64,000 bases of DNA, taken from IMG/VR virus record IMGVR_UViG_3300010355_001317, positions 1 to 64,000 of that record; one strand, given 5' to 3'. The first letter of the stretch is position 1; each line of letters begins with the position of its first letter. Both the position numbers and the translations under genes were made by a program. This DNA comes from a virus. Its lineage: Duplodnaviria > Heunggongvirae > Uroviricota > Caudoviricetes. Of the stretch, positions 8,877 through 62,520 are shown one piece after another. The notes beneath the pieces were generated by a model. It ran no database searches, was not told the origin of the DNA, and saw only the letters and a list, made by a program, of their open reading frames with translations.

Positions 8877-8881
8877 ATATA

Positions 8882-10280: not shown

Positions 10281-10511
10281 TTATTCTTTCATTATTTCTA
10301 TAATATTCTTTTTAAGAAAATATTTAAATACTTGTTTAGTAATATTTATTTTTCTTTCTATTTTAGGATCACTTCTATATAAAATCACTGAAAAATCTTT
10401 ATCTGAACCACGGTATGGTTTTAATTCAAATATTTCATCTTTATCAAAAGAGATAGTACCTCTTCTTAACCAATCTCCATATGAAAATTCTGTAATAAAT
10501 TTAACTTTCAT
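10281..10511 (-). CDS. hypothetical protein
   Basis: 76-aa ORF. Confidence 0.35.
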   Translation of the reverse strand: MKVKFITEFSYGDWLRRGTISFDKDEIFELKPYRGSDKDFSVILYRSDPKIERKINITKQVFKYFLKKNIIEIMKE

Positions 10512-10513
10512 AA

Positions 10514-31393: not shown

Positions 31394-31732
31394 ATGTTCA
31401 GTTTAAATTCTAAATATGTTGTTAGTGAATATGATTCACTAAGAGTTATCAAAGCAACGGAAGATAACTTAATATCTTTAATAGAAACAGAATTAAGAAG
31501 CATCTCTGATAATCTAGAATACCTAGATGAATCTAAAACATCTAAGCAAGATGCTACTAATTTTGTTCATTTTATAAAAGATGAGATAGGTAAATTAAAA
31601 GATCCCTATGAATATGCCAAAGAAAATTTAACCTCATTGGAATTCTATTTAAAAGATCTTCTTAAAAGAACAGAAGACTTTCTAATCTACAACATGCAGT
31701 TAAAAGACAATAGTATCCACGGTTTATCCTAA
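31394..31732 (+). CDS. hypothetical protein (plus-strand pair, second gene)
   Basis: 112 aa, 2-nt spacing from the upstream gene. Confidence 0.45.
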   Translation: MFSLNSKYVVSEYDSLRVIKATEDNLISLIETELRSISDNLEYLDESKTSKQDATNFVHFIKDEIGKLKDPYEYAKENLTSLEFYLKDLLKRTEDFLIYNMQLKDNSIHGLS

Positions 31733-31927
31733 TACTAATATACTCTCCTCTTTAATTAATTTTTCCAAAACGCGTGATGTTATATATAAATGCTTTGGGA
31801 ATACTTTACTTTCAAAATAATATTCTCCTGCGTGGAGATCTCGTTTTGATATAACAAGTACTTGTCCTCTTTCAAATGTACATCTGTGATCAAAATTCTT
31901 TACTACTATAAATTTATTGATTTTCAT
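31724..31927 (-). CDS. small protein, family A-like (weak)
   Basis: tail VLEKLIKEESILVLG. Confidence 0.35.
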   Translation of the reverse strand: MKINKFIVVKNFDHRCTFERGQVLVISKRDLHAGEYYFESKVFPKHLYITSRVLEKLIKEESILVLG

Positions 31928-32168
31928 AGATAACTTCTATATAATCTTCTTTAAGATATCTTCTAAAATCTTTTGTAGTCAATAGAGGAGCACCTTTTTT
32001 AAATATACTAAAATTTCTTAATTCAATTCTAGGTCCATTATCAGGAAAACCAAAATCTACATAACCTTTATATCTTACAATAACATCAAAGATTTGATTA
32101 AGATAATTAACACGAGGATATTCACTCAACACAAATATTGGTTTTACTATTTTAACTTTCATTAACAA
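31914..32168 (-). CDS. small protein, family A (C-terminal F[KR]xLLxxGxIxI motif)
   Basis: tail DFRRYLKEDYIEVIYENQ. Confidence 0.45.
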   Translation of the reverse strand: MLMKVKIVKPIFVLSEYPRVNYLNQIFDVIVRYKGYVDFGFPDNGPRIELRNFSIFKKGAPLLTTKDFRRYLKEDYIEVIYENQ

Positions 32169-32424
32169 TTACCATTGTACCATCTTTAATCCATTCTCTA
32201 AACTCGGAAGACATAAGATATAATGGATTTCCTATTCCACCTTCTCTTTCTATTATAAGATTCCAAATATATCCATTTTTGTGATTAGTCCCATTGTTGA
32301 AAGGCTTTATATACTTTTGTTCATCTTTTGTAAGCGGTCTAATTCTATATATAACATTCTGTGTAAGAACTACACTAGAACGGCTGTTTTCATCATCGAT
32401 TTCCCTAGTTACTCGTACTAACAT
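32152..32424 (-). CDS. small protein, family A
   Basis: tail EFREWIKDGTMVIVNES. Confidence 0.45.
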   Translation of the reverse strand: MLVRVTREIDDENSRSSVVLTQNVIYRIRPLTKDEQKYIKPFNNGTNHKNGYIWNLIIEREGGIGNPLYLMSSEFREWIKDGTMVIVNES

Positions 32425-32612
32425 ATTATTTTCAATTGTCCTTCTAAAAGAGCTTGTTTAAAATTCTTTCTAGACCAAAGCAAACTGCTGTTATATGGAT
32501 TCATTAATTTTGCACTAAGATTTTTTGCATTTACTATATAAAATTTACTTTTTTCTATTCTAGATAATTCGATAATATAAATCTTACCTGAAGGGATATA
32601 TTTTATTAACAT
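32418..32612 (-). CDS. small protein, family A
   Basis: tail NFKQALLEGQLKIIC. Confidence 0.45.
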   Translation of the reverse strand: MLIKYIPSGKIYIIELSRIEKSKFYIVNAKNLSAKLMNPYNSSLLWSRKNFKQALLEGQLKIIC

Positions 32613-32851
32613 ATTACTTGCATATCTCTATTTCTTAACCACTTTCTGAAATCTTGAACACAGATACTTTGTGTCCTGTTCAGACTCTTATCTACATCTA
32701 CATAATCTAAAGCAGATAAGAGTATTTGCCAATCCTCTGTAAATCTTCTATCAAAAGGAATAACTTCTACTGCGTATTTAATATTTGGATAAATACGAGC
32801 AAAGGTTCGATTATCCCCTGGGTCAATATCTCTTCTAAAGATCACTATCAT
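32606..32851 (-). CDS. small protein, family A
   Basis: tail DFRKWLRNRDMQVIC. Confidence 0.45.
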   Translation of the reverse strand: MIVIFRRDIDPGDNRTFARIYPNIKYAVEVIPFDRRFTEDWQILLSALDYVDVDKSLNRTQSICVQDFRKWLRNRDMQVIC

Positions 32852-33074
32852 TTATTAAAATTATATCTCCATTTTTGATAGCTTGTTTAAAAGCTCTAGT
32901 AGATAAATACTTCCACATATATCCACCGGATTCTGAAGATAATCGAATATCACTATCTGCATCAATGCTTACCATATAGAAGCTGTCACTATCAATAATT
33001 CTATTTCTATCACTAGAAAAAAACTTATCTGAATTAAGAGATTCATGTAGTTGATTTTTAACAAATATCTTCAT
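32835..33074 (-). CDS. small protein, family A
   Basis: tail AFKQAIKNGDIILINDSDL. Confidence 0.45.
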   Translation of the reverse strand: MKIFVKNQLHESLNSDKFFSSDRNRIIDSDSFYMVSIDADSDIRLSSESGGYMWKYLSTRAFKQAIKNGDIILINDSDL

Positions 33075-33284
33075 TTAAAAAACCTGAATTATATTATTTT
33101 TAACAAGCAAACAGAGAGTTCCATATCTCCATTGAGTTCTGACATAATGATATTTATACTTCTTATTATAATAGATATGTTGATTATCTAGATAACTATT
33201 AAAAGTATACACTTCACCTCTTCTACAATCATTAAAAGATTGTGTAAAAATAAATCGTTTTGGAATCTTATATGTTGTAGGCAT
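33075..33284 (-). CDS. small protein, PKRFIF subfamily
   Basis: N-terminal IPKRFIFTQSFNDCRRGEVYTF. Paralog of 33299..33523 and 57868..58113. Confidence 0.45.
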   Translation of the reverse strand: MPTTYKIPKRFIFTQSFNDCRRGEVYTFNSYLDNQHIYYNKKYKYHYVRTQWRYGTLCLLVKNNIIQVF

Positions 33285-33298
33285 TGATTTTTAATTAT

Positions 33299-33523
33299 TT
33301 AAAAAGGAAGTATAATTTTCATTTTTACTAGATTTCTTAAAAAAGATTTAGGCCAATAACTTTTATATTGGCCAGATCTAGTTTTATACGTATACACCAA
33401 TTGTTGTTTAGTTGTATCAAATAAATCAAAAATATGTACTTCACCCCTTTTACAATCTTTATAATCAGAAATAAATATAAATCTCTTCGGTATCATATTA
33501 TTTAATTTCTGTTTCAACTTCAA
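33299..33523 (-). CDS. small protein, PKRFIF subfamily
   Basis: IPKRFIFISDYKDCKRGEVHIF ... tail LVKMKIILPF. Confidence 0.45.
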   Translation of the reverse strand: MKLKQKLNNMIPKRFIFISDYKDCKRGEVHIFDLFDTTKQQLVYTYKTRSGQYKSYWPKSFLRNLVKMKIILPF

Positions 33524-33755
33524 TTGTTTTTAATATTTTAATGTATTCCCACTTTTCTAATACTGCTAATGTTATTGGATTATAGTATAAGTCTGTATTC
33601 CAACCTTGATCCTTATTTCTAGAATGAACTATGCATGAGTATCTAAATGCTCCTGGAACATGCCCTGCTTGTTGTAATTTCCAAATCTCACCTCTTTTTA
33701 CGTCTAAAAGTTTATCTGCCACAACAATAAATTCGGTAACATAAGTGACTTTCAT
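33498..33755 (-). CDS. small protein (SH3-like GExWKL core)
   Basis: 85 aa, KRGEIWKLQ. Confidence 0.4.
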   Translation of the reverse strand: MKVTYVTEFIVVADKLLDVKRGEIWKLQQAGHVPGAFRYSCIVHSRNKDQGWNTDLYYNPITLAVLEKWEYIKILKTIEVETEIK

Positions 33756-33961
33756 ATCAAAACCCTAATATTTTTATTTTTCAGATTTTCTCTAAAACTA
33801 CTAGTACTTAAATAACATCTAATATTATGACGGTCAGAAAGACGTATATCTTTATCATGATCTATATCTAACTCATACTCACCGGGTTCAATCCATTCTT
33901 TAACTAATATAGAATCGGAATTTGCACTTTGATGCAATATTTTATAAACATAAATTTTCAT
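33752..33961 (-). CDS. small protein, family A
   Basis: tail SFRENLKNKNIRVLI. Confidence 0.45.
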   Translation of the reverse strand: MKIYVYKILHQSANSDSILVKEWIEPGEYELDIDHDKDIRLSDRHNIRCYLSTSSFRENLKNKNIRVLI

Positions 33962-36808: not shown

Positions 36809-36809
36809 T

Positions 36810-37100
36810 CTATTGCTCCCTAAATATAAGTCTGCTTTCTCTAGAACCTATGTATTCTAGAAGACCTTTTTTAAACCATTTCCTGCATTGCAAAGCAAAA
36901 TTATCGCCTATGTATAGTGGAAATCTTACTTCTATCTCCGGATCTGAACCTGGATCAAATCTATAAACACTTGTTCTAAACATTTTCATTCTTTCTGTAT
37001 CTATTTCTAATATATCTCCCCTTTCAAAAACCATATCAGTTTTAGATTTAGAGGTAGAACAAATACCAGTTGCAATAAAGTATACAAACATTCTAACCAA
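36810..37100 (-). CDS. small protein, family A-like
   Basis: RGDILEID core, tail CRKWFKKGLLEYIGS. Confidence 0.4.
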   Translation of the reverse strand: MVRMFVYFIATGICSTSKSKTDMVFERGDILEIDTERMKMFRTSVYRFDPGSDPEIEVRFPLYIGDNFALQCRKWFKKGLLEYIGSRESRLIFREQ

Positions 37101-37644
37101 CCTTTAACATTTCTTTTCCAGATTCTGTTATACCTTCTTTAATGCTATTAATAGCCCATTCTACTTCAATAGAGTCTTTAAAGTTCTGAATATACCCATG
37201 AAGTTGTTCAAGACAAAAGATACCTGTTGCTTCAGATTGGATTTCTATTCCTTCATTAGTTCTATAGATTAAATAGGCAGGATATGTAAGATTACATCTA
37301 CATACAGAGCACTTCTTATTTTCTTTTACCCTTACCTTTTCTATTCGATCGAAAACATAAGGAGGTTCAAAATTAATTATAGTATCAAGCTCAGTAAGAT
37401 AATACAGCATCTTATCTGGTCTATGCTTAATAATATAAAGTTTGAAGTAAATAGCAACTTGCTTGATAGCATTTACAAGCTGTGGATAGTACAGATTTCT
37501 ATTTTGCATTGCATAAAATAACTTTATTACTCTATTCAATGCATGTGAAAATTGTCTTTTAGATTTAGGAACTTTCCATCTGGATGAAAGAAGAGATCCT
37601 GAATATAGTTTTAATCTTTGAATAGTAAGTTCTGTTGCATTCAT
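37093..37644 (-). CDS. hypothetical protein
   Basis: 183 aa. Confidence 0.45.
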   Translation of the reverse strand: MNATELTIQRLKLYSGSLLSSRWKVPKSKRQFSHALNRVIKLFYAMQNRNLYYPQLVNAIKQVAIYFKLYIIKHRPDKMLYYLTELDTIINFEPPYVFDRIEKVRVKENKKCSVCRCNLTYPAYLIYRTNEGIEIQSEATGIFCLEQLHGYIQNFKDSIEVEWAINSIKEGITESGKEMLKVG

Positions 37645-37919
37645 TTTTCTTCTCCATATAACCAGGTATAGAATTCTTTAGTCATCATTTGTTTTTTGTT
37701 TCTTATTCTGATATCATATAAAATTCTATCATATGATTTAACATGCTTTTCTATTTCTGTATAGTAAAACTCATTCAAAATAATGCAATTGCAACCTTTG
37801 TTATACCAATCTTGGCTAATTTGCAGAAGCTGAGAACAAACCCATTGATTTCTATTTAAATAATACAAGCAAAGAATTAACATGAAAAATGATATACTCA
37901 TAACAATAATAAATATCAT
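37641..37919 (-). CDS. membrane-anchored hypothetical protein
   Basis: N-terminal TM. Confidence 0.4.
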   Translation of the reverse strand: MIFIIVMSISFFMLILCLYYLNRNQWVCSQLLQISQDWYNKGCNCIILNEFYYTEIEKHVKSYDRILYDIRIRNKKQMMTKEFYTWLYGEEK

Positions 37920-38155
37920 TGATATAATACCTTCTTATCATTAATCCACTTTTGTATACATTCAATACTAAATCCGTAATAGAGATTACCTCTGGAGAAA
38001 ACACCTGTACAGGACATACCATAAAATTTATACTGTAGATTACCGGAACCATATACTTGATTAAAAATACAAAGCATACCTAGCTCTACATTAGCATTTT
38101 GATAGTAATCACCTTCACCATGTTCCAGAAATATAAACTTACTTGGTACTTTCAT
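37916..38155 (-). CDS. small protein, family A-like
   Basis: N-terminal MKVPSKFIFLEHGEGD, tail IQKWINDKKVLYQ. Confidence 0.4.
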   Translation of the reverse strand: MKVPSKFIFLEHGEGDYYQNANVELGMLCIFNQVYGSGNLQYKFYGMSCTGVFSRGNLYYGFSIECIQKWINDKKVLYQ

Positions 38156-38402
38156 ATTGATATATTATTAAATAATTTAATTTATGATAGTTTTGTATTA
38201 TATCAAAGCTAAAGTGAAAATATTTATCACGTGATGGTACATTACCATAATGCATATCTTTATGTGTACAAAAGAAATTATATCTAGCACTATCACTGTG
38301 TAGACGAACATCAGTATTTAAATGACAGACCATACCTTTTTTTAACTGTGCACCCTGCATTGCAAAGTCTTTGCAACAAATAAATTTTAAAGGTATTATC
38401 AT
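38139..38402 (-). CDS. small protein, family A-like
   Basis: N-terminal MIIPLKFICCKDF. Confidence 0.4.
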   Translation of the reverse strand: MIIPLKFICCKDFAMQGAQLKKGMVCHLNTDVRLHSDSARYNFFCTHKDMHYGNVPSRDKYFHFSFDIIQNYHKLNYLIIYQYESTK

Positions 38403-41302: not shown

Positions 41303-41563
41303 CTAGAACCTCAAAATAAATTTATTGTCTTCCCAATATTTTAAAAGATTTGCTGTAAAAGGAATGTTTAATATATGTCTATCTGTATCACAAACATATC
41401 TAATGTCACTTCCTGGTGAAGCAAAATTTAAAACCCATTCCCTAGTGAATACTAATCCTTTAGTAAAAGAAATAGATTGATGATATCCCCTGGTATATGG
41501 AAGAACAGAAATAGTATCTGTAACTGTCATGATAAATCTATTCGGTTCTGTTCTAGCAATCAT
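41303..41563 (-). CDS. hypothetical protein
   Basis: 86 aa. Confidence 0.4.
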   Translation of the reverse strand: MIARTEPNRFIMTVTDTISVLPYTRGYHQSISFTKGLVFTREWVLNFASPGSDIRYVCDTDRHILNIPFTANLLKYWEDNKFILRF

Positions 41564-41590: not shown

Positions 41591-41785
41591 CTAATCTGAT
41601 TCTTTAGATGCATTTTTCACTATTACGCATTTAGCATTATCTTTTACTTCCAAACTCATTCCGAATAGATAATCCATGTGTCCTTGCGCATTCCAATGAT
41701 GATCATATTTAGTATCTGGTGAATCACTACCAAATTTCTGAATAAATTCATGTTTACTTAATATTCTATACTTTATTAATTCCAT
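41591..41785 (-). CDS. small protein, family C (HWNxxGxMDYLFG), lacking the IILNQ tail
   Basis: DHHWNAQGHMDYLFG. Confidence 0.45.
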   Translation of the reverse strand: MELIKYRILSKHEFIQKFGSDSPDTKYDHHWNAQGHMDYLFGMSLEVKDNAKCVIVKNASKESD

Positions 41786-42117
41786 TCTACGCCTACTGAA
41801 TATTTATCTTTGATTTGAAGCAGTGTTTTATTTTTTATAAGTGAAAAAAAATCTTCAAGACGCATTTCTTTACTACTAGTCCCTCTAACTCCTCCTGAAA
41901 CCATAATTATTCTATCAGATAAAAAAGATACTATAGGATAGAGTGATACTGTATAACCCACCCAAGTAGGATTATATTCAATATAATCTTCTAAGGAAGT
42001 TAGTTGTCTAAAAGATTCTTTATCTGGAAAAACAAAAGCTAAGATTTCTCCTTTGTTTAGCTCATTAGTAGATTTTAATACTATATATATTCTTATGTTT
42101 TTATAATATGTTATCAT
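41776..42117 (-). CDS. small protein, family A-like
   Basis: tail FFSLIKNKTLLQIKDK. Confidence 0.4.
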   Translation of the reverse strand: MITYYKNIRIYIVLKSTNELNKGEILAFVFPDKESFRQLTSLEDYIEYNPTWVGYTVSLYPIVSFLSDRIIMVSGGVRGTSSKEMRLEDFFSLIKNKTLLQIKDKYSVGVEWN

Positions 42118-42119
42118 TT

Positions 42120-42437
42120 CTACTTTTGAATATCACAAGTTAATATACAATCTTTTATTATCATAAGTTTATGTTGTTCCAGTAATTTAAAAAATTGATT
42201 TACTAATACAGCAGTAGTTTTGCTTTCTACTGTCGCAGTATTTTTAGTAAGATTAGTAATCTTATATAAACCTAACACTGAATCACAATCTAAGTTAGCA
42301 TTATTATCAAGAAATAATTGCATAGAATTAAGCGAATTTACGTCTTCAGAACTACTCAGTATATATAAATACAAATATCCTTTATCAAAAATAATATTGG
42401 ATTCTGTTGCTATATACATTCTAACTCTATAATTCAT
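42120..42437 (-). CDS. small protein, family A-like
   Basis: tail FFKLLEQHKLMIIKDC. Confidence 0.4.
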   Translation of the reverse strand: MNYRVRMYIATESNIIFDKGYLYLYILSSSEDVNSLNSMQLFLDNNANLDCDSVLGLYKITNLTKNTATVESKTTAVLVNQFFKLLEQHKLMIIKDCILTCDIQK

Positions 42438-42706
42438 TGTAATTCAATCCCATCTTTAGTAATTATTTCTATAACATTATGATTCTTTAACATATGAAAT
42501 TGAGGATAAGAAAAGAATCTAGAATTATTATCTTCGTCAATGCAGAAGTAACCTTTCTTGATTTTTCCATCAGATTTATTTACAATATCCTTTGCCATTA
42601 TTGTATAATTCATCTGTCTGTTTTTAGAAGTTGCCAGTAATCTAAATCTATCACCTACCTTCATGTTATCCTCCATTACTTTATAGTAGATATGGATCGG
42701 GATCAA
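42434..42706 (-). CDS. small protein, family A-like
   Basis: tail MLKNHNVIEIITKD. Confidence 0.4.
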   Translation of the reverse strand: MIPIHIYYKVMEDNMKVGDRFRLLATSKNRQMNYTIMAKDIVNKSDGKIKKGYFCIDEDNNSRFFSYPQFHMLKNHNVIEIITKDGIELQ

Positions 42707-43052
42707 TGTCTTTGATTTTTAAAAGAATTCTTCGTTTAATAAGATCAAAAAGTATAAATAATGTTAAATCTATTGAAAAACACATTGATCTAGATTTTTT
42801 TAAACCAGATACACAAAAGAGAGTAATAGTATCAGTATCTCGACCATATGCTTGACTATGTTTTCTGTATAGATCAATAGAATTCAATGCTATTAAATCA
42901 TCGCTTGTTCTAAAGCAAAAGATTTGACCTTTTTTAATTTCTTTAGAAAGATAGTCTTCAGTCGCTATGTAATATCTAGCTTTCATTTTACCACCAGTGT
43001 TTAATAAGTATGGTCTCTTGAAAATCAGCTCCATTATCAAGAAGCCAATCAT
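42681..43052 (-). CDS. small protein, family A-like
   Basis: tail FDLIKRRILLKIKD. Confidence 0.4.
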   Translation of the reverse strand: MIGFLIMELIFKRPYLLNTGGKMKARYYIATEDYLSKEIKKGQIFCFRTSDDLIALNSIDLYRKHSQAYGRDTDTITLFCVSGLKKSRSMCFSIDLTLFILFDLIKRRILLKIKDIDPDPYLL

Positions 43053-44737: not shown

Positions 44738-44753
44738 TCTCCTGTATTTAATA

Positions 44754-46550: not shown

Positions 46551-46573
46551 TCCAGTCTCCTATATTTATTTAA

Positions 46574-46831: not shown

Positions 46832-46889
46832 TGTATACCTAGAAAGCAGGGGAGGACAATAATTGTCCCCCCCTGTTAATACTTACGAC

Positions 46890-49889: not shown

Positions 49890-50111
49890 TCACTCCTGAT
49901 CTAACTTAAATTCCACTGTTCCTTTTTCTACTAATGGTACTATCGAAATAGTATGAAGTATATTAAGAACTCCTATAGCTCGTTCTTCATCTTTAGTTAA
50001 AGATCCTTGTGAAGTGGACTTTAAAGAAAGATGAATAAGAGAACGACCAGAAGAAACTGCTATATCCTCTGGCTTTGCCATTGCCAATAAGTTACCTATA
50101 TTCATTTCCAA
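49890..50111 (-). CDS. hypothetical protein
   Basis: 73 aa. Confidence 0.35.
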   Translation of the reverse strand: MEMNIGNLLAMAKPEDIAVSSGRSLIHLSLKSTSQGSLTKDEERAIGVLNILHTISIVPLVEKGTVEFKLDQE

Positions 50112-50584
50112 TCCTCCAATTTTTTGTATGTTGAATGTTTATAAGTTATTTCTTTAATAATATTCCAATCTTCTTTTGAACAGGACATAGATACAACTAG
50201 AATCTTGTTTTGTTTACTAAGTTCTTTTAGATGATTTTTCGAATAAGAACTAGGCTGCTGGTCTCGTTCAGACCACAATACTAGTCTATTACTAGTGTCA
50301 TAAATATTTAAAAGATAAAATATACTTCCTTTTTCTACACTCGAATCTACTATAAATTTAGTATGATCAAGATACATTAAGTTATCTGCAGGAAAAGTAT
50401 AATAAGGATGTAATGTGGTGTTTACCATTTGATTATCATCAACTTGACCACTATCTGTTATAACTCTTCCTATTTTATTGATAAAGTAATCCACAGCTTC
50501 TTGAGTATACCAGCGATACTTTTGCATAGTATCCCGTAGATTTTCTTTAACAAGAAAAAAATCACCTTTTTTAAATAAAACCAT
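50102..50584 (-). CDS. hypothetical protein
   Basis: 160 aa. Confidence 0.45.
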   Translation of the reverse strand: MVLFKKGDFFLVKENLRDTMQKYRWYTQEAVDYFINKIGRVITDSGQVDDNQMVNTTLHPYYTFPADNLMYLDHTKFIVDSSVEKGSIFYLLNIYDTSNRLVLWSERDQQPSSYSKNHLKELSKQNKILVVSMSCSKEDWNIIKEITYKHSTYKKLEDWK

Positions 50585-51124: not shown

Positions 51125-51556
51125 TTAAAATCTTAATATGTGTTTATTGTCTAGTAATTCCTTTATTCCTCTGTTTGAAATAACAAGTTTGTGCATAGAT
51201 GTTCTGGATGTATAAGTAGCTTTAGGTTCCTCTTCCTCTAAAGTATTTAATTTATCCAAATCTATTGGTCTTATATGAAAAACTTCTCCTTTCTTATAAG
51301 GAGTAAATTTTATTATTATAAAGCGATTTGGAAAAAGAAGTTCTACATGATTTGATGGTATATAATAATTCTTATCTTTTCTAAGAAAAATATTTTTTCC
51401 TTCATTTGTAATTAAAGTACCGATCTTTGCATCACCTGAATATTCTATAATATATCCTGTTTTATAAGTAGAAAGTAAAGCAGACCATCCATGCCTTTTA
51501 CAACAATCTACCCAAGAAGGAAGTATCCTTAATATATCACCCTGTTTATATAGCAT
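51125..51556 (-). CDS. hypothetical protein
   Basis: 143 aa. Confidence 0.45.
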   Translation of the reverse strand: MLYKQGDILRILPSWVDCCKRHGWSALLSTYKTGYIIEYSGDAKIGTLITNEGKNIFLRKDKNYYIPSNHVELLFPNRFIIIKFTPYKKGEVFHIRPIDLDKLNTLEEEEPKATYTSRTSMHKLVISNRGIKELLDNKHILRF

Positions 51557-51701: not shown

Positions 51702-51950
51702 TTAATTGCTGTAACTTTCATTATCACTCTCCTCTTGTAATATTATCATACTCTTTTCTTTTAACCAATTCTTAAAGTCATCTTTAGTTATTAACCAAGG
51801 ATGCTTAGGATCTGCTTCCAGATTATTTATGTTAAATAAAGCAATATGTGAGTAATGTGTTTCATGATGAATAGTAACTTTGTAGATACCATTTTCTTTT
51901 GGTCTAGAATTTGTTATTCCTCGGCAATCTTTTAGAAATTTAACTATCAT
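51702..51950 (-). CDS. small protein, family A
   Basis: tail DFKNWLKEKSMIILQEE. Confidence 0.45.
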   Translation of the reverse strand: MIVKFLKDCRGITNSRPKENGIYKVTIHHETHYSHIALFNINNLEADPKHPWLITKDDFKNWLKEKSMIILQEESDNESYSN

Positions 51951-52118
51951 ATTCTTGTTTGTGTTTGTGCTTTCTTGTGTATCTTTTTTTATCTATGATT
52001 ACTTTTTCTGGTTTGATTTGTAATCTACCAATTATTCTCTTAATCTCTTTTTGTAAAATATCGTTTTTTATTCTAGAACTTTTCATTGCTTTTTCTTTTA
52101 TTTTCATTTTGAACGAAT

Positions 52119-52364
52119 TTAGTTATCTGTTATTATTTCTAATATTCCTTCTCTTAATAACTTTTTAAAATCTGCTACACTAATTCCTTGATCTATGTTT
52201 GGTGAGTGTTTTTTACCGTCATCAGAATAGCAATTGCATTCACTACCTTTAAATCTAATTACTTTTGATCTAGAAGATTCTATGAATATTTCATAATCCC
52301 CTGTAAAATTATAAATCCTTCCACCGATATGTGGCTGTAAAAATTCTTTTACTCTTACGCGCAT
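52119..52364 (-). CDS. small protein, family A (tandem triplet 1/3)
   Basis: FTGDYEIFIE ... DFKKLLREGILEIITDN. Confidence 0.5.
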   Translation of the reverse strand: MRVRVKEFLQPHIGGRIYNFTGDYEIFIESSRSKVIRFKGSECNCYSDDGKKHSPNIDQGISVADFKKLLREGILEIITDN

Positions 52365-52582
52365 ATTTCTATAATTCCTTCTCTTAATAACCTTTTAAAA
52401 GTTCTTGGTGGTATTCCCTGATCCACTGACCTGTTTGTAATATCAGAACTTCCTTTAAATCTAATAAAAACTTTTTCCATATCTTGAACACAAGGATCAA
52501 TATATACTTCAAAAGTACCAGTAAAAGAAGCTATAGGAACATCGCTATAATTTGCTATATTTTTTTTAACTCTTACTTTCAT
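52355..52582 (-). CDS. small protein, family A (tandem triplet 2/3)
   Basis: SFTGTFEVYID ... TFKRLLREGIIEICA. Confidence 0.5.
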   Translation of the reverse strand: MKVRVKKNIANYSDVPIASFTGTFEVYIDPCVQDMEKVFIRFKGSSDITNRSVDQGIPPRTFKRLLREGIIEICA

Positions 52583-52797
52583 TTCGTTACTATTCTAAGT
52601 ATTCCTTGTCTTAATAATCTTTTAAACTCGCTTGGTGGTATTCCTTGATCACGACCCTCTGTACTATTTTTAAATCTAATATAAACTCCTTCTCTATTTA
52701 TCACATTATGATCGAGGTATATTTCGAATGTTCCAGTAAAAGAAGCAATATAAAATGATACAAGATCAGTAAGCTCTTGTGTTACTTGAACTAACAT
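52579..52797 (-). CDS. small protein, family A (tandem triplet 3/3)
   Basis: SFTGTFEIYLD ... EFKRLLRQGILRIVTK. Confidence 0.5.
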   Translation of the reverse strand: MLVQVTQELTDLVSFYIASFTGTFEIYLDHNVINREGVYIRFKNSTEGRDQGIPPSEFKRLLRQGILRIVTK

Positions 52798-53857: not shown

Positions 53858-54148
53858 CTAACATTCTTCTTCTCCTATAGAGCAAATTCTAATTAAACCA
53901 GATTGATGCATTTGTATGATATCATTGGTGGTAAACCAATAAACACGATCTACTGGAACAAAAGATCCTTTTTTAAAAAATTTAATTAAATCAGATGCTT
54001 TAAAATAACGAAAAGGACTGTCACTATCGTCATAGCCACCCTGAAAAATAAAAACTTCTCCTTTATACGAAATAGTTTGTTTTATAGAATAATTACTTAT
54101 TCTTTTTATTCTATCTTTAGTTACAATAAATTTTTTAATTACTTTCAT
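53858..54148 (-). CDS. small protein, family A-like
   Basis: KASDLIKFFKKGSFVPV. Confidence 0.4.
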   Translation of the reverse strand: MKVIKKFIVTKDRIKRISNYSIKQTISYKGEVFIFQGGYDDSDSPFRYFKASDLIKFFKKGSFVPVDRVYWFTTNDIIQMHQSGLIRICSIGEEEC

Positions 54149-55895: not shown

Positions 55896-57119
55896 TTGAA
55901 TAAAGTAAATTATAAAATGTTGAAAACATATAAATACAGACTCTATCCTACATCCAATCAAATTGTTTTATTCGAAAAACATTTTGGTTGTGCTCGATTT
56001 GTCTATAATTGGGGATTACAAACAAAAATCGATGCTTATCAAAAAGAAAGTAAATCATTATCATTTTACTCTCTTATACCATTACTTGCAAAACTTAAAA
56101 GTGAACCTGGTAAAGAATGGTTATATGAAGTTAATAGCCAATCTCTACAAAATTCTCTTTTTAATCTGGATAAAGCATTTACTAAATTCTTTCGAGATAA
56201 AAAAGGATTTCCTAAATTCAAATCTAAAAAGAATAATAGACAATCTTTCCAAATACCCCAAAATACTAAAATTGATTTCGAATCAAATAGAATCTCAGTA
56301 CCGAAAATAAAAAGTATTAAAGCTAAAATATCAAGAAAATTTGAAGGTAAAATAAAAACGTCTACTATTTCTAAAACTCCTACAGGTAAATTCTTTATTT
56401 CAATACTTGTTGAAACTCCTGATGATATACAATCTAAACCAAGTATAAAAGAAAATAAAACAATAGGAATAGATTTAGGACTTACACATTTTGCTATATT
56501 ATCAAATGGAATTAAAATTGATTCACCAAAGTTTTTAAAGAAATCCTCTCATCGCTTAAAATTATTACAAAGGAGATTATCAAGAAAAGTAAAAGGATCT
56601 AACAATAGAAATAAATCTAGATTAAAAGTAGCTTTATTGCATGAAAAGATAGAAAACCAAAGATTAGATTTTCTACATAAATTAACATATTTTTTAACCC
56701 ATGATAACCAAGTGGATACAATATGTTTAGAAAATCTTAATATTTCTGGAATGTTAAAAAACCATAAACTAGCATGTTCTATTTCAGATGCTTCTTGGAG
56801 TAAATTTATTGAGCTTTTGAAATACAAATGTGACTGGTATGGTAAAAATTTATTATTTATAGGTAGATTTGAACCTTCTTCAAAAATGTGTTCATGCGGA
56901 GCAATTAATCAGCTTCTTACACTAGCAGATAGAAGTTGGATTTGTCCTTCATGTAAAACGTTAATTGAAGATAGAGACATACATGCTGCCTTAAATATTA
57001 AAAAATTTGCACTTCAAAAACAAAATATAGTAGGGTGGGAATCACCCGAATTTACGCTTGCCAAATATGATTCTTTTATTGAATCAGGGCAAGAATCTTT
57101 TGCCTTTAGACAAAAGTAG
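55896..57119 (+). CDS. tnpB: IS200/IS605-family TnpB (second, divergent copy); solo
   Basis: N-terminal YKYRLYPT...FGCARFVYNWGL, RuvC-I IGIDLGL, RuvC-II ICLENLN, zinc finger CSCG...CPSC, RuvC-III RDIHAALNI. Confidence 0.9.
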   Translation: MNKVNYKMLKTYKYRLYPTSNQIVLFEKHFGCARFVYNWGLQTKIDAYQKESKSLSFYSLIPLLAKLKSEPGKEWLYEVNSQSLQNSLFNLDKAFTKFFRDKKGFPKFKSKKNNRQSFQIPQNTKIDFESNRISVPKIKSIKAKISRKFEGKIKTSTISKTPTGKFFISILVETPDDIQSKPSIKENKTIGIDLGLTHFAILSNGIKIDSPKFLKKSSHRLKLLQRRLSRKVKGSNNRNKSRLKVALLHEKIENQRLDFLHKLTYFLTHDNQVDTICLENLNISGMLKNHKLACSISDASWSKFIELLKYKCDWYGKNLLFIGRFEPSSKMCSCGAINQLLTLADRSWICPSCKTLIEDRDIHAALNIKKFALQKQNIVGWESPEFTLAKYDSFIESGQESFAFRQK

Positions 57120-57867: not shown

Positions 57868-58113
57868 CTAGAAAGGAATAATCACTTTTTCTTTTATTAA
57901 TTTCTTAAGTAAATTGATACCTTCTGACGTATGATATTGTATAAATGCACTATGATCTTTTGTGTCATAACAAATTGTATTAATAGAGTTTTTTCTATCT
58001 ATCTTAAATACTTGACCCTTCTTCTGGGTTAGATACGCTAAAGGAATGTAGCATGATCTAGCTTTTGGAAATTCATAATCCTTAGTTAAAATAAATCTTT
58101 TCGGAAACTTCAT
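57868..58113 (-). CDS. small protein, PKRFIF subfamily
   Basis: MKFPKRFILTKDYEF ... tail LIKEKVIIPF. Confidence 0.45.
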   Translation of the reverse strand: MKFPKRFILTKDYEFPKARSCYIPLAYLTQKKGQVFKIDRKNSINTICYDTKDHSAFIQYHTSEGINLLKKLIKEKVIIPF

Positions 58114-58353
58114 ATCTTATTACCATCTTTATCACAGAAGAAAAGTAAATTCTCTTTAAGCATCTTTCTAAAATCAGAAGAATAAATAAATTGACTACAG
58201 TGTGCATTGCAAGATAAAAATATTAACTCTGACTGCGGAGTAGAAGAATCTGCTGTATTTGGGACAACAAGATAAATATATTGTGGATTTAATGAAAAGT
58301 AACTTCAGCTTTAGGTCTTCTCCAGTTAATATGGTTACGAGGTTTAATATACA

Positions 58354-58578
58354 TTAAAGTTTATCTCCTTTTTTGGAGCAAAAATAAATAAGATTCTCTT
58401 TAATTAATCTTCTAAAATCTTTAACTGAAATACTCTGGCCATATCCTAGTGTTAAGCTCTGTAATCGAACTCTGTCATTCCAATGACAAGATACTTCATA
58501 AGCATCTACATATAAAGTAAATCCTATTTCATAATCTCCTGTTTTGGTTGCTATCATATGATAAGGTTTAATATACAT
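58354..58578 (-). CDS. small protein, family A (array member)
   Basis: tail DFRRLIKENLIYFCSKKGDKL. Confidence 0.5.
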   Translation of the reverse strand: MYIKPYHMIATKTGDYEIGFTLYVDAYEVSCHWNDRVRLQSLTLGYGQSISVKDFRRLIKENLIYFCSKKGDKL

Positions 58579-58814
58579 TATATTAAATCACCATTTTCGT
58601 CACAAATACCAAGTATATTCTTTTTGATTAGTTCTCTAAAATCAGATACGGTAACATATTGTTTCTTAGATCTATCTAAACTTATTAGAATCAAGCAAGG
58701 TGCATCATGATAATCAGAAGTATTAATAACTTCATAAATAATATTACCATGTAAAGTAAAAGATAAATTTCCACCAAAAGAAATTTTTTGATTATCAGTT
58801 AATTTAACAACCAT
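58578..58814 (-). CDS. small protein, family A (array member)
   Basis: tail DFRELIKKNILGICDENGDLI. Confidence 0.5.
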   Translation of the reverse strand: MVVKLTDNQKISFGGNLSFTLHGNIIYEVINTSDYHDAPCLILISLDRSKKQYVTVSDFRELIKKNILGICDENGDLI

Positions 58815-58837
58815 ATATTATCCTAAATATCTAATGT

Positions 58838-58923
58838 GCCCAGAGCGGGAATTGAACCCGCATGACTTCAACAGTCGAGGGATTTTAAGTCCCTTGTGTC
58901 TACCAGATTCCACCATCTGGGCT
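58838..58923 (-). tRNA. tRNA-Leu (TAA anticodon), type II
   Basis: Acceptor GCCCAGA/TCTGGGC, D-arm GTGGAATCTGGTAGACAC, anticodon arm AGGGA-CTTAAAA-TCCCT, long variable arm GACTGTTGAAGTC, T-arm CGGGTTCAATTCCCG. Confidence 0.85.
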
Positions 58924-58929
58924 AATTTA

Positions 58930-59145
58930 CTACTCTATAACTACTGAAATAATCTTTTGTTTTAAAAAATCTCTAAACTCATTTCTAGTTATTACTATGC
59001 ATGAACCTCCTACTTGTGATAAGCAAACATTTAAATTATTTAACTCCCCGTAAACATCTACATTAAGAATATTTCCTTGATAAGTTTTTGTATCTTGAAA
59101 TATTAAAGGAAGTTCCCTACTTGGTTTATTAACTTTAACTTTCAT
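58930..59145 (-). CDS. small protein, family A (array member)
   Basis: tail EFRDFLKQKIISVVIE. Confidence 0.5.
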   Translation of the reverse strand: MKVKVNKPSRELPLIFQDTKTYQGNILNVDVYGELNNLNVCLSQVGGSCIVITRNEFRDFLKQKIISVVIE

Positions 59146-59368
59146 CTTTAACTATTTCTATTATTTTATTTCTTAATAATTCTTTAAATGCTTCTCTTGA
59201 TATAATGTATCCATGATTATCAGTACCACAAATTGTTAGATATGTATCTGGAAACAATCTGTTTGGTGAATAGTTTAAATGATTTTTCCAGAGATCAATT
59301 TTGCAGGTATCATTAATAGAAAAGTATTCTGTATTACTATCTGTGTTATTTAATATTCTAACTTTCAT
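59135..59368 (-). CDS. small protein, family A (array member)
   Basis: tail AFKELLRNKIIEIVKDES. Confidence 0.5.
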   Translation of the reverse strand: MKVRILNNTDSNTEYFSINDTCKIDLWKNHLNYSPNRLFPDTYLTICGTDNHGYIISREAFKELLRNKIIEIVKDES

Positions 59369-59627
59369 TTATGTTGGATCTCACTACTCTAAAAATACCA
59401 GATCTTAGACAAAATCTAAAAGATATTTTATCTAATATAATACCCTTACCGCCTATCTTATGTAATAGTACATTATGTATATGTGTTTCTCCATATCCTT
59501 TCCAAGGAGAAACTTCCAATACATCTCCTGGTCTAAAGTTTTTATATCTCCATGCAAAAGGAAGATCCTCTTCTTCTATTAAGAGTTGAACTTGCATTTC
59601 ATTGCCCAAATTCTTTTTTACTATCAA
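59358..59627 (-). CDS. small protein, family A (array member)
   Basis: PGDVLEVSPW ... SFRFCLRSGIFRVV. Confidence 0.5.
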   Translation of the reverse strand: MIVKKNLGNEMQVQLLIEEEDLPFAWRYKNFRPGDVLEVSPWKGYGETHIHNVLLHKIGGKGIILDKISFRFCLRSGIFRVVRSNINES

Positions 59628-59847
59628 GAATTTCTATATACTCTCCAAGTAATAATTTTCTATAATTATGTTTTGAAATAAAGTAACCATGTTCGTTAAT
59701 TGGGCATATAATTAATCTATTAGATGTATCATGTGAACTTGTATTCTTGGGGTGATCTTTCCAATATCTAATTTCTAGAATATCTCCAGGTACCCAATTT
59801 TTTGTATCAGAAATAAATGGAATTGGTTTAAGTAATTTAATCTTCAT
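59599..59847 (-). CDS. small protein, family A (array member)
   Basis: PGDILEIRYW ... NYRKLLLGEYIEIL. Confidence 0.5.
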   Translation of the reverse strand: MKIKLLKPIPFISDTKNWVPGDILEIRYWKDHPKNTSSHDTSNRLIICPINEHGYFISKHNYRKLLLGEYIEILDSKKEFGQ

Positions 59848-60073
59848 ATATTAGTTCTATATAATTATTTCTAAGTAAATCTTTGAACTGTTCTCTGGTT
59901 AGAAAGTTTCCACTTTGATTTAAATCTTGTCGACAAATTGTAAGAATGTCTTTTTGACGAGAGCTTCTTTCTGACCACATTGGGTGATCTTTCCAAAGGA
60001 GTAACACAGTTATCTCATTTACTTGAAACATTTTAAGCTTGTCATGTGAGTTATTTATAATTCTGCATTTCAT
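59837..60073 (-). CDS. small protein, family A (array member)
   Basis: tail QFKDLLRNNYIELIYED. Confidence 0.5.
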   Translation of the reverse strand: MKCRIINNSHDKLKMFQVNEITVLLLWKDHPMWSERSSRQKDILTICRQDLNQSGNFLTREQFKDLLRNNYIELIYED

Positions 60074-60309
60074 TGTATATCTTCTTCTATTATTTTAATT
60101 TTATGTTCTCTTAAAAGTTTCTTAAATATTTTTCTATCTATAAACCAACCTGTGTTTTGCATATCTTTACACAAGATCAAAGTATCCGATTCTCTGGGAC
60201 CTCCGATACGATAATGGGAATGATGTTTATATAAACAAATTTCAGCAGTAGTACCTTCTTTCCATATCTTACTCCATATCTCAAAACTTTTAAGTATAAA
60301 AATTTTCAT
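60070..60309 (-). CDS. small protein, family A (array member)
   Basis: tail IFKKLLREHKIKIIEED. Confidence 0.5.
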   Translation of the reverse strand: MKIFILKSFEIWSKIWKEGTTAEICLYKHHSHYRIGGPRESDTLILCKDMQNTGWFIDRKIFKKLLREHKIKIIEEDIQ

Positions 60310-60312
60310 AAG

Positions 60313-60531
60313 TTATATCTCTTTTTTAAAAGGAAGAATAGCGTTATCCTTAATATGAAAATTTAGACTTTCTTTGGATGTATAAATAAATCTCTTTCTA
60401 TTTACTACTGATCGTAATATAAAGTTTGTATAAGACTTAGTGTATGATACTGTTACAACCTCTCCTCTTTTGAATTGAGTTGTATAAGACCGAATAGAAT
60501 TGTCTTTCACGATTATAACGTAAACTTTCAA
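60313..60531 (-). CDS. small protein, family A-like (array member)
   Basis: tail NFHIKDNAILPFKKEI. Confidence 0.45.
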   Translation of the reverse strand: MKVYVIIVKDNSIRSYTTQFKRGEVVTVSYTKSYTNFILRSVVNRKRFIYTSKESLNFHIKDNAILPFKKEI

Positions 60532-60796: not shown

Positions 60797-61021
60797 TTAA
60801 TTATCCTGATTTAATATAATTTGTTTTTCAACTTCAGATATACCTATTAATTCTACCTGGCTTTCTAGAATACCGTAACGATAAGATTTACCATCCCAAT
60901 TGTCTGGCTGAAATCTTATATAAGAATCAGACGCATATTCGCAAACAATACCAGTAACACCCTTTTTTATCCATTCATTTTTTAAAGTTCTAACTCTATC
61001 ACCTATTTTAAACTTATGCAT
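60797..61021 (-). CDS. KOW/SH3-like small protein with IILNQ C-terminal tag
   Basis: N-terminal MHKFKIGDRVRT; tail EVEKQIILNQDN-stop. Confidence 0.5.
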   Translation of the reverse strand: MHKFKIGDRVRTLKNEWIKKGVTGIVCEYASDSYIRFQPDNWDGKSYRYGILESQVELIGISEVEKQIILNQDN

Positions 61022-61023
61022 AG

Positions 61024-61317
61024 TTAGTTGTTCTGATTTAGGATAATTTGCTTCTCATCGTTATAAGATATACAATTTATAGGAATAGTTTCTACTGGAT
61101 TACCTTCAATCAAATCTAAACTGTTAGGTGAAAAGTTAGCAGTATATCTTTGCTGAAATATATAAGCTTCTCTTTCAAAAACAACAACAATAAGAAACTT
61201 ATCCCTACATCCTCTATAATAACTTTGAATGTCAAGAATTGTACCTACCTTACCACGAAGATTATGTTGAGTAGATCTTCTATTAACTCTAACCTTATCA
61301 CCCACATTAAATTTCAT
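61024..61317 (-). CDS. KOW/SH3-like small protein with IILNQ C-terminal tag
   Basis: N-terminal MKFNVGDKVRV; tail NDEKQIILNQNN-stop. Confidence 0.5.
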   Translation of the reverse strand: MKFNVGDKVRVNRRSTQHNLRGKVGTILDIQSYYRGCRDKFLIVVVFEREAYIFQQRYTANFSPNSLDLIEGNPVETIPINCISYNDEKQIILNQNN

Positions 61318-61318
61318 A

Positions 61319-61528
61319 TTAGATATCCTGATTAAGAGTTATTTTCTTTTCTTCAATCAAAATTGAATTGAAGTTTAATTGATCAATTGATTGTAAATCT
61401 TTTTCTGAGCATTGTTTTCTACAGGAAGGGTCTGTTTCCTTCACACAAATAAACCATTTCTGTTTACACCCGTGCCATATTTGATAGTCAATATTCAATA
61501 TCTCTTTAGGAGTTTCTTCTTTAAACAC
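61319..61528 (-). CDS. Cys-containing small protein with ITLNQ C-terminal tag
   Basis: tail EEKKITLNQDI-stop. Confidence 0.45.
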   Translation of the reverse strand: MFKEETPKEILNIDYQIWHGCKQKWFICVKETDPSCRKQCSEKDLQSIDQLNFNSILIEEKKITLNQDI

Positions 61529-61550
61529 TCAAACACTATCTTTTTTCATT

Positions 61551-61808
61551 TCAAACATCCTGATTAAGAATTATTTGTGATTCATCAAGAACATAACTCA
61601 AACATATTAACCCAACATGCCTAATAGGAATGACAAAAGAATTTTCTTTTAGAGTAATAGCTGGTATATTTCCATATAATCGAATAACTGCTTTAATAGT
61701 AAATATTTTATCTATTAAACCATACATCTTTCCATCCCAGCTATATCTTACAATATCATCTTCTAGTGAAGAACAAACCCTTACTTTATCGCCAATCTTA
61801 AGATCCAT
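61551..61808 (-). CDS. KOW/SH3-like small protein with IILNQ C-terminal tag
   Basis: N-terminal MDLKIGDKVRV; tail DESQIILNQDV-stop. Confidence 0.5.
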   Translation of the reverse strand: MDLKIGDKVRVCSSLEDDIVRYSWDGKMYGLIDKIFTIKAVIRLYGNIPAITLKENSFVIPIRHVGLICLSYVLDESQIILNQDV

Positions 61809-62271: not shown

Positions 62272-62520
62272 TTAGTTTTGATTTAATATTATTTGTTCTT
62301 CTTCTAAAAAGAACGTTGTTTGTAGAGTTCTGATTCTCTCAAGCTCCTTAATAGCATATTCTTTTATCTGATCTGTTGAGAGTAAGTTGCGTGTAACAAA
62401 ATTAAAACAAGGATGCTTATCAAGGAGATGTTCGCAATGAGTATCGCAATTAATCCCCCAACAACTTCCGTTTTGGGAAATAAGTTCTTCTAAAAGATTT
62501 TCTTTGCTTATAATCTTCAT
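62272..62520 (-). CDS. small protein with IILNQ C-terminal tag
   Basis: tail FLEEEQIILNQN-stop. Confidence 0.45.
   Translation of the reverse strand: MKIISKENLLEELISQNGSCWGINCDTHCEHLLDKHPCFNFVTRNLLSTDQIKEYAIKELERIRTLQTTFFLEEEQIILNQN

What the first reader, a model, noticed from the sequence alone, without database searches (positions are those of the whole stretch)
57868..60531. Large expansion of a small-protein family with the conserved C-terminal motif F[KR]xLL[KR]xGxIxI, in tandem arrays
At least 30 ORFs of 60-110 aa share this tail. Their N-terminal halves are diversified, often with a W.PGD(I/V)LE(I/V) SH3-like core or an IPKRFIF start. They sit in tandem arrays at 31724..33961, 36810..38402, 41776..43052, 51702..52797, 53858..54148 and 57868..60531, the last of which has ten consecutive members. 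Expansion and diversification on this scale is characteristic of arms-race gene families such as anti-defence or host-takeover proteins. The motif order (beta-barrel core, then the amphipathic F..LL..G.IEI strand) loosely resembles a circularly permuted ASCH/PUA-like unit.
Basis: seen in the sequence. Interest (0 to 1): 0.62.

Follow-up and report, generated by a model that had tools for sequence, protein, structure and literature searches.

The report
Expanded SH3-like mini-protein family in phage
A large uncultivated phage carries dozens of diverged copies of a previously undescribed ~75-residue protein predicted to form an SH3-like barrel, probably a set of small binding modules, though what any copy binds is unknown.

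The parts
10281..10511 (-).
   Evidence: Leave-one-out HMM E 9.9e-07; tail VFKYFLKKNIIEIMKE
31914..32168 (-). Family A member. The true start is probably the second ATG (end coordinate 32162), as in P0004.
   Evidence: Leave-one-out E 4.4e-06; P0004 sequence
32152..32424 (-). Family A member
   Evidence: Leave-one-out E 6.1e-08
32418..32612 (-). Family A member, the shortest (64 aa) and the weakest accepted
   Evidence: Leave-one-out E 3.4e-04
32606..32851 (-). Family A member
   Evidence: Leave-one-out E 1.2e-05
32835..33074 (-). Family A member
   Evidence: Leave-one-out E 8.3e-07; BLASTP pair with 33752
33752..33961 (-). Family A member
   Evidence: Leave-one-out E 1.3e-07
51702..51950 (-). 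Family A member
   Evidence: Leave-one-out E 2.2e-10; L001 ortholog 79% identical, dN/dS 0.34
52119..52364 (-). Family A member
   Evidence: Leave-one-out E 1.3e-09; dN/dS 0.42
52355..52582 (-). Family A member
   Evidence: Leave-one-out E 1.2e-13; 49% identical to 52579, the closest paralog pair
52579..52797 (-). Family A member
   Evidence: Leave-one-out E 2.8e-09
58113..58304 (-). Decayed family A pseudogene: a stop-to-stop fragment with no start codon, tail SSDFRKMLKENLLFFCDKDGNKI*
   Evidence: Six-frame HMM scan E 5.3e-05, matching model positions 20-80; translation; a shorter remnant in L001 at 11453-11545
58354..58578 (-). Family A member
   Evidence: Leave-one-out E 1.2e-05; dN/dS 0.37
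58578..58814 (-). Family A member
   Evidence: Leave-one-out E 6.9e-08; dN/dS 1.21, but from few changes (dS 0.078)
58930..59145 (-). Family A member
   Evidence: Leave-one-out E 3.4e-10
59135..59368 (-). Family A member, the one whose structure was modelled
59358..59627 (-). Family A member with the FRPGDVLEV motif. The likely start is the internal ATG (end coordinate 59597), as in P0020.
   Evidence: Leave-one-out E 4.1e-08; P0020 sequence
59599..59847 (-). Family A member with the WVPGDILEI motif
   Evidence: Leave-one-out E 7e-10; dN/dS 0.12
59837..60073 (-). Family A member
   Evidence: Leave-one-out E 5.3e-10
60070..60309 (-). Family A member
   Evidence: Leave-one-out E 6.7e-10
60313..60531 (-). 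Family B member, borderline for family A
   Evidence: Family A leave-one-out E 0.0053, no better than the best decoy; scores E 4.9e-18 against a family B model that already contains it, after being added at E<1e-3
57868..58113 (-). Family B member (MKFPKRFIL...KVIIPF)
   Evidence: BLASTP cluster with 33075 and 33299; family B HMM
31724..31927 (-). Family B member
   Evidence: Family B HMM; alignment A4
33075..33284 (-). Family B member
   Evidence: BLASTP cluster; family B HMM
33299..33523 (-). Family B member, the one whose structure was modelled
33498..33755 (-). Family B member
   Evidence: Family B HMM
38139..38402 (-). Family B member
   Evidence: Family B HMM
37916..38155 (-). Family B-like, linked through 38139
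   Evidence: Single-sequence profile iteration joins it to 38139; family B HMM E 0.0021
53858..54148 (-). Family B-like, borderline
   Evidence: Family B HMM E 0.002, at decoy level; aligns in A4
41303..41563 (-). Family B-like, borderline
   Evidence: Family B HMM E 0.0024; aligns in A4
51125..51556 (-). Two-domain protein whose C-terminal domain belongs to family B
   Evidence: Family B HMM; alignment A4
50102..50584 (-). Two-domain protein whose second domain belongs to family B
   Evidence: Family B HMM; alignment A4
58836..58922 (-). tRNA-Leu(UAA) gene embedded in the array. It is not a family member; it interrupts the 'ten consecutive' run.
   Evidence: ARAGORN

Best explanation
Family A is a lineage-specific, anciently diversified multigene family in an uncultivated phage of about 238 kb. 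The window holds 19 intact genes and one pseudogene, and at least 30 copies lie in the stretches of the genome that I scanned.

Each gene encodes a single-domain protein of about 75 residues that is predicted to fold as an SH3-like five-stranded barrel. An alpha-helix takes the place of the usual 3-10 turn between strands 4 and 5.

The conserved parts are the N-terminal strand (MKVKV) and the C-terminal helix plus strand (F[KR]xxL[KR]xGxIxI). They form the invariant frame that closes the barrel. The loops between strands 1-2, 2-3 and 3-4 vary in length and sequence. In SH3 domains the equivalent RT and n-Src loops form the ligand-binding face.

The genes arose by local tandem duplication. They are tightly packed, often with overlapping stop and start codons, and so are probably co-transcribed.

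The most likely function is a set of small stoichiometric protein-binding modules, each aimed at a different host or phage protein (host takeover, counter-defence or regulation).

Family B is interleaved with A, and two of its domains are fused behind another small domain. It has the same predicted architecture and is probably a distant branch or an analogue.

Shown here: homology within A, the coding status of the genes, purifying selection with faster-evolving loops, the predicted fold, and restriction to this phage lineage. Inferred: the binding function and the nature of the targets.
For: - Homology within A: iterative and leave-one-out HMM searches with decoys.
- Real genes: every ortholog is intact and syntenic in the close relative L001. 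Pooled dN/dS is 0.37 over 936 codons.
- Loops vary, frame is conserved: ortholog substitutions run at 20.5% per site in the middle region against 10.1% in the helix plus b5 (Fisher p=5e-4).
- Tandem origin: the nearest paralog lies in the same array for 13 of 19 genes, against 5.4 expected (p=0.002). Adjacent genes overlap by 1-29 nt or are separated by at most 3 nt.
- Birth and death: a pseudogene at 58113-58304, with a shorter remnant in L001.
- Fast turnover: in the more distant relative L011, PolX is 73% and the Band_7 protein 78% identical, but the best family A match is only about 30%. L011 still carries at least 15 members in 16 kb.
- Against a uniform nucleic-acid-binding role: pI ranges from 5.1 to 9.9 and net charge from -2 to +8 across family A.
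- Context: the surrounding genes are T4-like non-structural ones, namely denV, dNMP kinase, dCMP deaminase, homing endonucleases and CobS/VWA.
Against: - No experimental or interaction evidence exists, and the host is unknown.
- dN/dS is below 1 for 11 of 12 orthologous pairs, so there is no clear sign of positive selection. Faster evolution could simply reflect relaxed constraint on small accessory proteins.
- Two basic residues on the helix (K/R at motif positions 2 and 6) are conserved, which could point to a shared ligand rather than diversified ones.
- The A-B relationship rests on predicted structures only. I could not superpose the two models directly.
- Expression timing is unknown.
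Confidence: 0.45

Rival explanations
1. The proteins are small nucleic-acid-binding barrels (like Sso7d/Cren7, KOW, Tudor or Hfq-type barrels). They would act as phage chromatin proteins, RNA chaperones or gene-specific transcription factors. The conserved basic helix would contact the backbone and the variable loops would read sequence.
For: - K/R residues at two helix positions are conserved.
- Family B is strongly basic, with pI up to 10.1 and net charge up to +11.
- The roughly 35-copy zinc-ribbon expansion of Bacillus phage G was likewise proposed to encode transcription factors or DNA-binding proteins (PMC7824862).
Against: - Family A has no consistent positive charge: pI 5.1-9.9, and five members have net charge of zero or below.
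- The closest fold matches (FeoA, DtxR C-terminal domain, SH3, Tudor) are protein or peptide binders.
Confidence: 0.2
2. The copies are functionally redundant or nearly neutral duplicates: filler in a plastic genome region, kept only by weak selection and drifting apart, with no diversified targets.
For: - dN/dS is higher than in neighbouring genes (0.37 against 0.24).
- One copy has decayed to a pseudogene.
- No orthologs are recognisable in the distant relative.
Against: - All 12 orthologs compared keep intact reading frames, with dN/dS well below 1.
- Paralogs are old (median 23% identity), yet all keep the frame motifs and give a confident fold prediction.
- The distant relative also maintains at least 15 copies.
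Confidence: 0.12
3. The proteins are virion or assembly components, such as decoration, internal or ejected proteins, present in many variants.
For: Some phage structural and decoration modules are small beta-barrels. This is general knowledge and was not tested here.
Against: - The arrays lie among nucleotide-metabolism, repair and homing-endonuclease genes, not structural genes.
- No member hits a PHROG structural family with significance.
Confidence: 0.06
4. One reading: a circularly permuted ASCH/PUA-like unit.
For: Only that both are beta-rich barrels.
Against: - The predicted strand order is the ordinary SH3 order, with the helix between b4 and b5.
- No member hits an ASCH or PUA Pfam model.
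Confidence: 0.02
5. The shared tail is compositional chance in an AT-rich genome (K/I/L bias), with no homology.
For: - The genome is about 29% GC.
- Loosely similar tails in groups C and D cannot be linked to A statistically.
Against: - Leave-one-out E-values fall as low as 1.6e-14, against a best decoy of 0.005 among 1,804 composition-matched decoys.
- The alignment runs full length and includes the N-terminal strand.
- The same profile finds members in other contigs at E down to 1e-16 against 1.84 billion proteins.
Confidence: 0.01

Closest known systems
FeoA and the C-terminal SH3-like domain of DtxR/IdeR/ScaR (Pfam FeoA, PF04023)
   Different: No sequence similarity: sequence identity in the structural alignments is 4-14% and there is no Pfam hit at E<=0.1. 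The window holds no ORF large enough to be feoB, since the largest is a 598-aa VWA protein. No metal-regulator context. FeoA is not known to form large paralog arrays (my own knowledge, not checked here).
Canonical SH3 and Tudor/chromo-type small beta-barrels
   Different: A nine-residue alpha-helix replaces the 3-10 turn. There are no SH3 sequence motifs and no Pfam SH3 hit. These are free-standing single-domain proteins rather than modules within larger proteins.
Lineage-specific expansion of a zinc ribbon (about 35 copies) in Bacillus phage G (Iyer et al. 2021, PMC7824862)
   Same: One small domain is expanded to tens of copies within a single jumbo phage genome, with unknown function. That paper calls the scale 'unprecedented'.
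   Different: The fold differs (SH3-like barrel rather than zinc ribbon). The copies here lie mostly in tight tandem arrays. Copy number is at least 30 for family A plus 9-12 for family B in the parts of the genome I could read.
Small uncharacterised SH3-like phage proteins in BFVD, and DUF1653 (PDB 3be3)
   Different: No BFVD match has E below 0.03. None has a known function and none is reported as an expanded family. No sequence similarity.

Membership tests
SH3-like small beta-barrel fold (structural class) | Five beta-strands in the order b1-b5, with a short helix between b4 and b5 | tested here: met
   AlphaFold/DSSP for A: E2-5, E21-26, E43-47, E53-57, H58-66, E70-73 (pLDDT 92.6). For B: E14-17, E29-36, E41-47, E52-57, H59-67, E71-73 (pLDDT 90.2). 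These are predictions, not solved structures.
SH3-like small beta-barrel fold (structural class) | Structural superposition on solved SH3-like barrels | tested here: met
FeoA (Pfam PF04023) | Significant match to the family HMM | tested here: not met
   No FeoA hit at E<=1 for ten representatives, nor at E<=0.1 for all 31 family A and 12 family B sequences
FeoA (Pfam PF04023) | Genomic association with feoB | tested here: not met
   The largest ORF in the window is 598 aa and is a VWA-domain protein. The neighbours of the arrays are small ORFs of unknown function.
Eukaryote-type SH3 domains (Pfam SH3 families) | Match to SH3 HMMs or conserved peptide-binding aromatic motifs | tested here: not met
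   No SH3-family Pfam hit for any member. The only sequence-level hint is a non-significant profile match to the drk SH3 domain 2a37 (E 0.45).
Known phage protein families (PHROGs) | Significant match to a PHROG profile | tested here: not met
   Best E 0.06-0.4 for ten representatives
Known defence-system proteins (PADLOC) | Significant match to a PADLOC model | tested here: not met
   One of 31 members matched PtuB at E 0.002 and nothing else did, which is consistent with chance
Known anti-defence proteins (anti-CRISPR, anti-RM, anti-CBASS and others) | Homology to a curated anti-defence family, or demonstrated inhibition of a defence system | not testable with these tools
   No anti-defence profile library is available here, and inhibition needs an experiment
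Lineage-specific paralog expansion in a jumbo phage | Many paralogs of one domain in one phage genome, absent from other lineages | tested here: met
   19 genes in the window plus 11 in L009 on the same 237,933-bp contig. Only 30 clusters match among 1.84 billion representatives, all short proteins; the contigs looked up belong to related genomes. No hit in GenBank phages.

The most novel reading that the evidence does not exclude
The phage carries a natural library of 40 or more mini-binders built on one SH3-like scaffold (families A and B). Each would neutralise or redirect a different host protein or defence system. This would be a counter-defence and takeover arsenal generated by tandem duplication and loop diversification, on a scale equal to or above the largest domain expansion so far described in a phage.
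Probability: 0.2. Interest if true: 0.8.

Novelty: new variant of a known kind. Interest (0 to 1): 0.52.

Why it matters
If the copies are diversified binders, they would give dozens of ready-made, very small (about 75 residues) inhibitors or adaptors of bacterial proteins on a single stable scaffold. That is useful for finding new anti-defence functions and as a natural template for designing binders. The family also shows that jumbo phages can grow gene families by duplication and divergence on a scale more familiar from giant viruses. It further flags a 238-kb contig deposited as a Candidatus Dojkabacteria MAG whose gene content looks like that of a phage.

Tried and rejected
- DNA search of window 44700-48200 against GenBank phages found no match. 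A first attempt failed on the length limit.
- tblastn of a family A member against GenBank phages gave only a chance hit at E 0.8.
- The search for related loci with the family alignment failed because no stretch was conserved enough. With PolX against IMG/VR contigs it found no relative.
- Attempts to join A with B, C and D by sequence all failed. hhalign gave probabilities of 11% or lower. An enlarged 48-sequence family A profile did no better: hhalign probability was 2.4% or lower, and the hmmsearch E-values of B, C and D members were no better than decoys. I therefore do not count C (36548, 36810) or D (41776, 42120, 42681, possibly 42434) as members.
- 60313-60531 entered the A profile during iteration but fails leave-one-out (E 0.0053, equal to decoy level), so I reassigned it to B.
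- Foldseek against BFVD found nothing below E 0.03.
- A profile search against PDB sequences found nothing significant.
- Three literature searches for a described SH3-like paralog expansion in phages returned nothing relevant. Only the phage G zinc-ribbon comparison was useful.
- The sigma-70 promoter and terminator scan of 57-62 kb was not enriched over shuffles: 23 promoter-like sites against 30.5 expected.
- Shine-Dalgarno-like motifs are absent upstream of most members. I drew no conclusion from this.
Full report
**Setting**

The window is about 29% GC, and nearly all its genes lie on the minus strand as tightly packed small ORFs. Recognisable genes are typical of the non-structural part of a large T4-like phage:
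- pyrimidine-dimer glycosylase (denV type), dNMP kinase, dCMP deaminase and peptide deformylase;
- GIY-YIG/NUMOD homing endonucleases;
- a CobS-like AAA ATPase next to a VWA protein;
- a Pol X, a radical-SAM protein and an SPFH/Band_7 protein;
- two TnpB genes and two tRNA genes.

A DUF7873 protein is shared with Gordonia, Arthrobacter, Vibrio and other phages. The window belongs to a 237,933-bp metagenomic contig. One copy of the same sequence is deposited as a Candidatus Dojkabacteria MAG. From the gene content I read it as a jumbo phage, or at least a large phage-like element. No structural genes lie in the window, so this is an inference.

**Is the family real?**

All-against-all BLASTP of the window ORFs gives only small clusters of 6, 3, 3 and 2. 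An iterative HMM seeded on the six-gene cluster at 58930-60309 grew to 20 ORFs and then stopped, with no hit among 1,804 shuffled or reversed decoys.

In leave-one-out tests 19 of the 20 are recovered, with E from 1.6e-14 to 3.4e-4 for a search space of 164 genes. The best decoy, in an 11-fold larger set, reached 0.005. The twentieth ORF (60313-60531) scores 0.0053 and fits the second family better.

The alignment runs full length. It has an N-terminal MK(V/I)x(V/I) strand, a variable middle, a nearly invariant Phe, and the tail F[KR]xxL[KR]xGxIxI.

A six-frame scan added one decayed copy at 58113-58304. It has no start codon, ends SSDFRKMLKENLLFFCDKDGNKI*, and scores E 5e-5. A closely related strain keeps only a shorter remnant.

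**What does not belong?**

The genes that start with PKRFIF form their own family, B: 31724, 33075, 33299, 33498, 38139, 57868, 60313 and the C-terminal domains of 50102 and 51125. Three more are borderline: 37916, 41303 and 53858.
- hhalign between A and B gives at most 11% probability.
- A-C and A-D comparisons are not significant.
- A 48-sequence family A profile still does not pull in B, C or D.

The count of 'at least 30 with this tail' is therefore not met by sequence inside the window. It is met in two other ways. A plus B share a predicted fold. Separately, 11 further family A genes lie within 17.5 kb beyond the right end of the window on the same contig (L009). No further copy lies in the 10 kb to the left.

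The flagged stretch 57868-60531 contains eight family A genes flanked by two family B genes. It is interrupted by a tRNA-Leu(UAA) gene and by the pseudogene.

**Fold**

AlphaFold2 with the 20-sequence alignment gives a confident model of 59135-59368 (pLDDT 92.6). It has four strands, a nine-residue helix and a fifth strand. The family B model (33299-33523, pLDDT 90.2) has the same order of elements.

- the C-terminal SH3-like domains of ScaR and IdeR;
- spindlin and Tudor domains, ZO-1 and many other SH3 domains;
- barrel domains of TraI, TnsB and RecD, plus 2gs5 and DUF1653.

No match description names an ASCH, PUA or EVE domain. The conserved tail is thus the helix and last strand of an ordinary SH3-like barrel. 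By the standard SH3 topology, that strand pairs with the conserved first strand to close the barrel. The pairing is my inference, because I could not inspect the coordinates.

**Database status**

No member hits Pfam, PHROGs, PADLOC or PDB sequences. A full HMMER scan of 1.84 billion representative proteins found only 30 clusters at E<=1e-3. About 18 are the window's own genes or near-identical copies of them. The rest are short proteins with the same architecture, and those I looked up come from related metagenomic contigs. Family B is equally restricted. Foldseek against BFVD found nothing below E 0.03.

**Evolution**

A closely related strain (L001) keeps the arrays gene for gene.
- Pooled Nei-Gojobori estimates give dN/dS 0.37 for 12 family A orthologs (85% amino-acid identity), 0.39 for five family B orthologs, and 0.24 for 17 neighbouring genes (91% identity). 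The genes are coding and under purifying selection, but they evolve somewhat faster than their neighbours.
- Ortholog substitutions are twice as frequent in the variable middle (20.5% per site) as in the helix plus last strand (10.1%; Fisher p=5e-4).
- Paralogs are old: median identity is 23% and the maximum is 49%.
- The nearest paralog usually lies in the same array (13 of 19, against 5.4 expected; p=0.002), which points to local tandem duplication.
- In a more distant relative (L011) PolX is 73% and the Band_7 protein 78% identical, but no family A gene matches a window copy above about 34%. That 16-kb fragment nevertheless holds at least 15 members. The repertoire is maintained as a family while the individual genes turn over or diverge quickly.

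**Function**

Nothing here tests function directly. I favour diversified protein-binding modules for four reasons:
- The variable segments correspond in position to the RT, n-Src and distal loops, which form the ligand face of SH3 domains (established knowledge).
- The closest folds are protein or peptide binders.
- Family A has no uniform charge: pI 5.1-9.9 and net charge -2 to +8.
- The arrays lie in a plastic, non-structural genome region.

A nucleic-acid-binding role is the main rival. It is more plausible for the strongly basic family B. The conserved K/R pair on the helix also keeps it open for A.

The arms-race reading is consistent with the fast turnover but is not demonstrated, because dN/dS stays below 1.

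**Comparison and novelty**

The fold is known, and paralog expansions in jumbo phages are known. The roughly 35-copy zinc-ribbon expansion in Bacillus phage G was called unprecedented (PMC7824862). This sequence family is not in any library I could search, and its copy number equals or exceeds that example. I rate it a new variant of a known kind, of moderate interest. Its value depends on experiments that identify the targets.

Noticed in passing
54355-54642, 60797-61021, 61024-61317, 61319-61528, 61551-61808, 62272-62520, 63253-63528 (all minus strand): Seven small proteins with differing N-terminal regions (some pairs are BLASTP-related) all end in the same C-terminal peptide, (E)xQIILNQ(D/E/N)(N/I/V). 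In the six copies whose DNA I compared, the codons differ synonymously, so the conservation is at the protein level, not a DNA motif. It could be a C-terminal sorting, docking or degradation tag.
   Followed up: partly
window 58836-58922 (-); L001 about 10446-10935: A tRNA-Leu(UAA) gene sits inside the family A array. In the closely related strain L001 the same tRNA gene is split by an insertion of about 400 nt. The insertion matches the Rfam group I intron model at 42.2 bits (E 2e-9), below the gathering score of 50. ARAGORN no longer calls a tRNA there.
   Followed up: partly
11778-13037 (+) and 55896-57119 (+): Two TnpB/IS605 OrfB-type genes lie on the opposite strand to everything else. 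In the window the second one sits between Pol X and the radical-SAM gene. In L001 those two genes are adjacent and the 91%-identical TnpB lies about 400 bp further on, which points to recent transposition.
   Followed up: partly
whole window; contig Ga0116249_10000038 (237,933 bp); NCBI DAOQBE010000002.1: The sequence is deposited as part of a Candidatus Dojkabacteria MAG, but its gene content is that of a phage: denV, dNMP kinase, homing endonucleases, and a DUF7873 protein shared with many phages. It is probably a mis-binned jumbo phage, and the binning may hint at its host.
   Followed up: partly
36548-37100 (-) and 41776-43052 (-): There are two further small paralog groups: C with two genes and D with three or four genes of 90-123 aa. 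Their C-terminal tails are loosely similar (for example FFKLLEQHKLMIIKD), but they cannot be linked statistically to family A or B. I did not model their structures.
   Followed up: partly
50102-50584 (-) and 51125-51556 (-): Two longer proteins carry a family B domain behind an N-terminal domain with a K(Q/K)GD motif. That motif resembles the GD(K/R)VRV starts of other small proteins at 60797-61808. The phage may therefore hold several distinct families of SH3-like mini-proteins.
   Followed up: no
upstream of family A start codons (for example 59145, 59368, 59847, 60073): Most family genes lack a recognisable Shine-Dalgarno motif and overlap the preceding gene by 1-29 nt. This suggests translational coupling or a host that makes little use of Shine-Dalgarno sequences.
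   Followed up: no
8805-8877 (-): A second tRNA gene, tRNA-Met(CAT).
   Followed up: no
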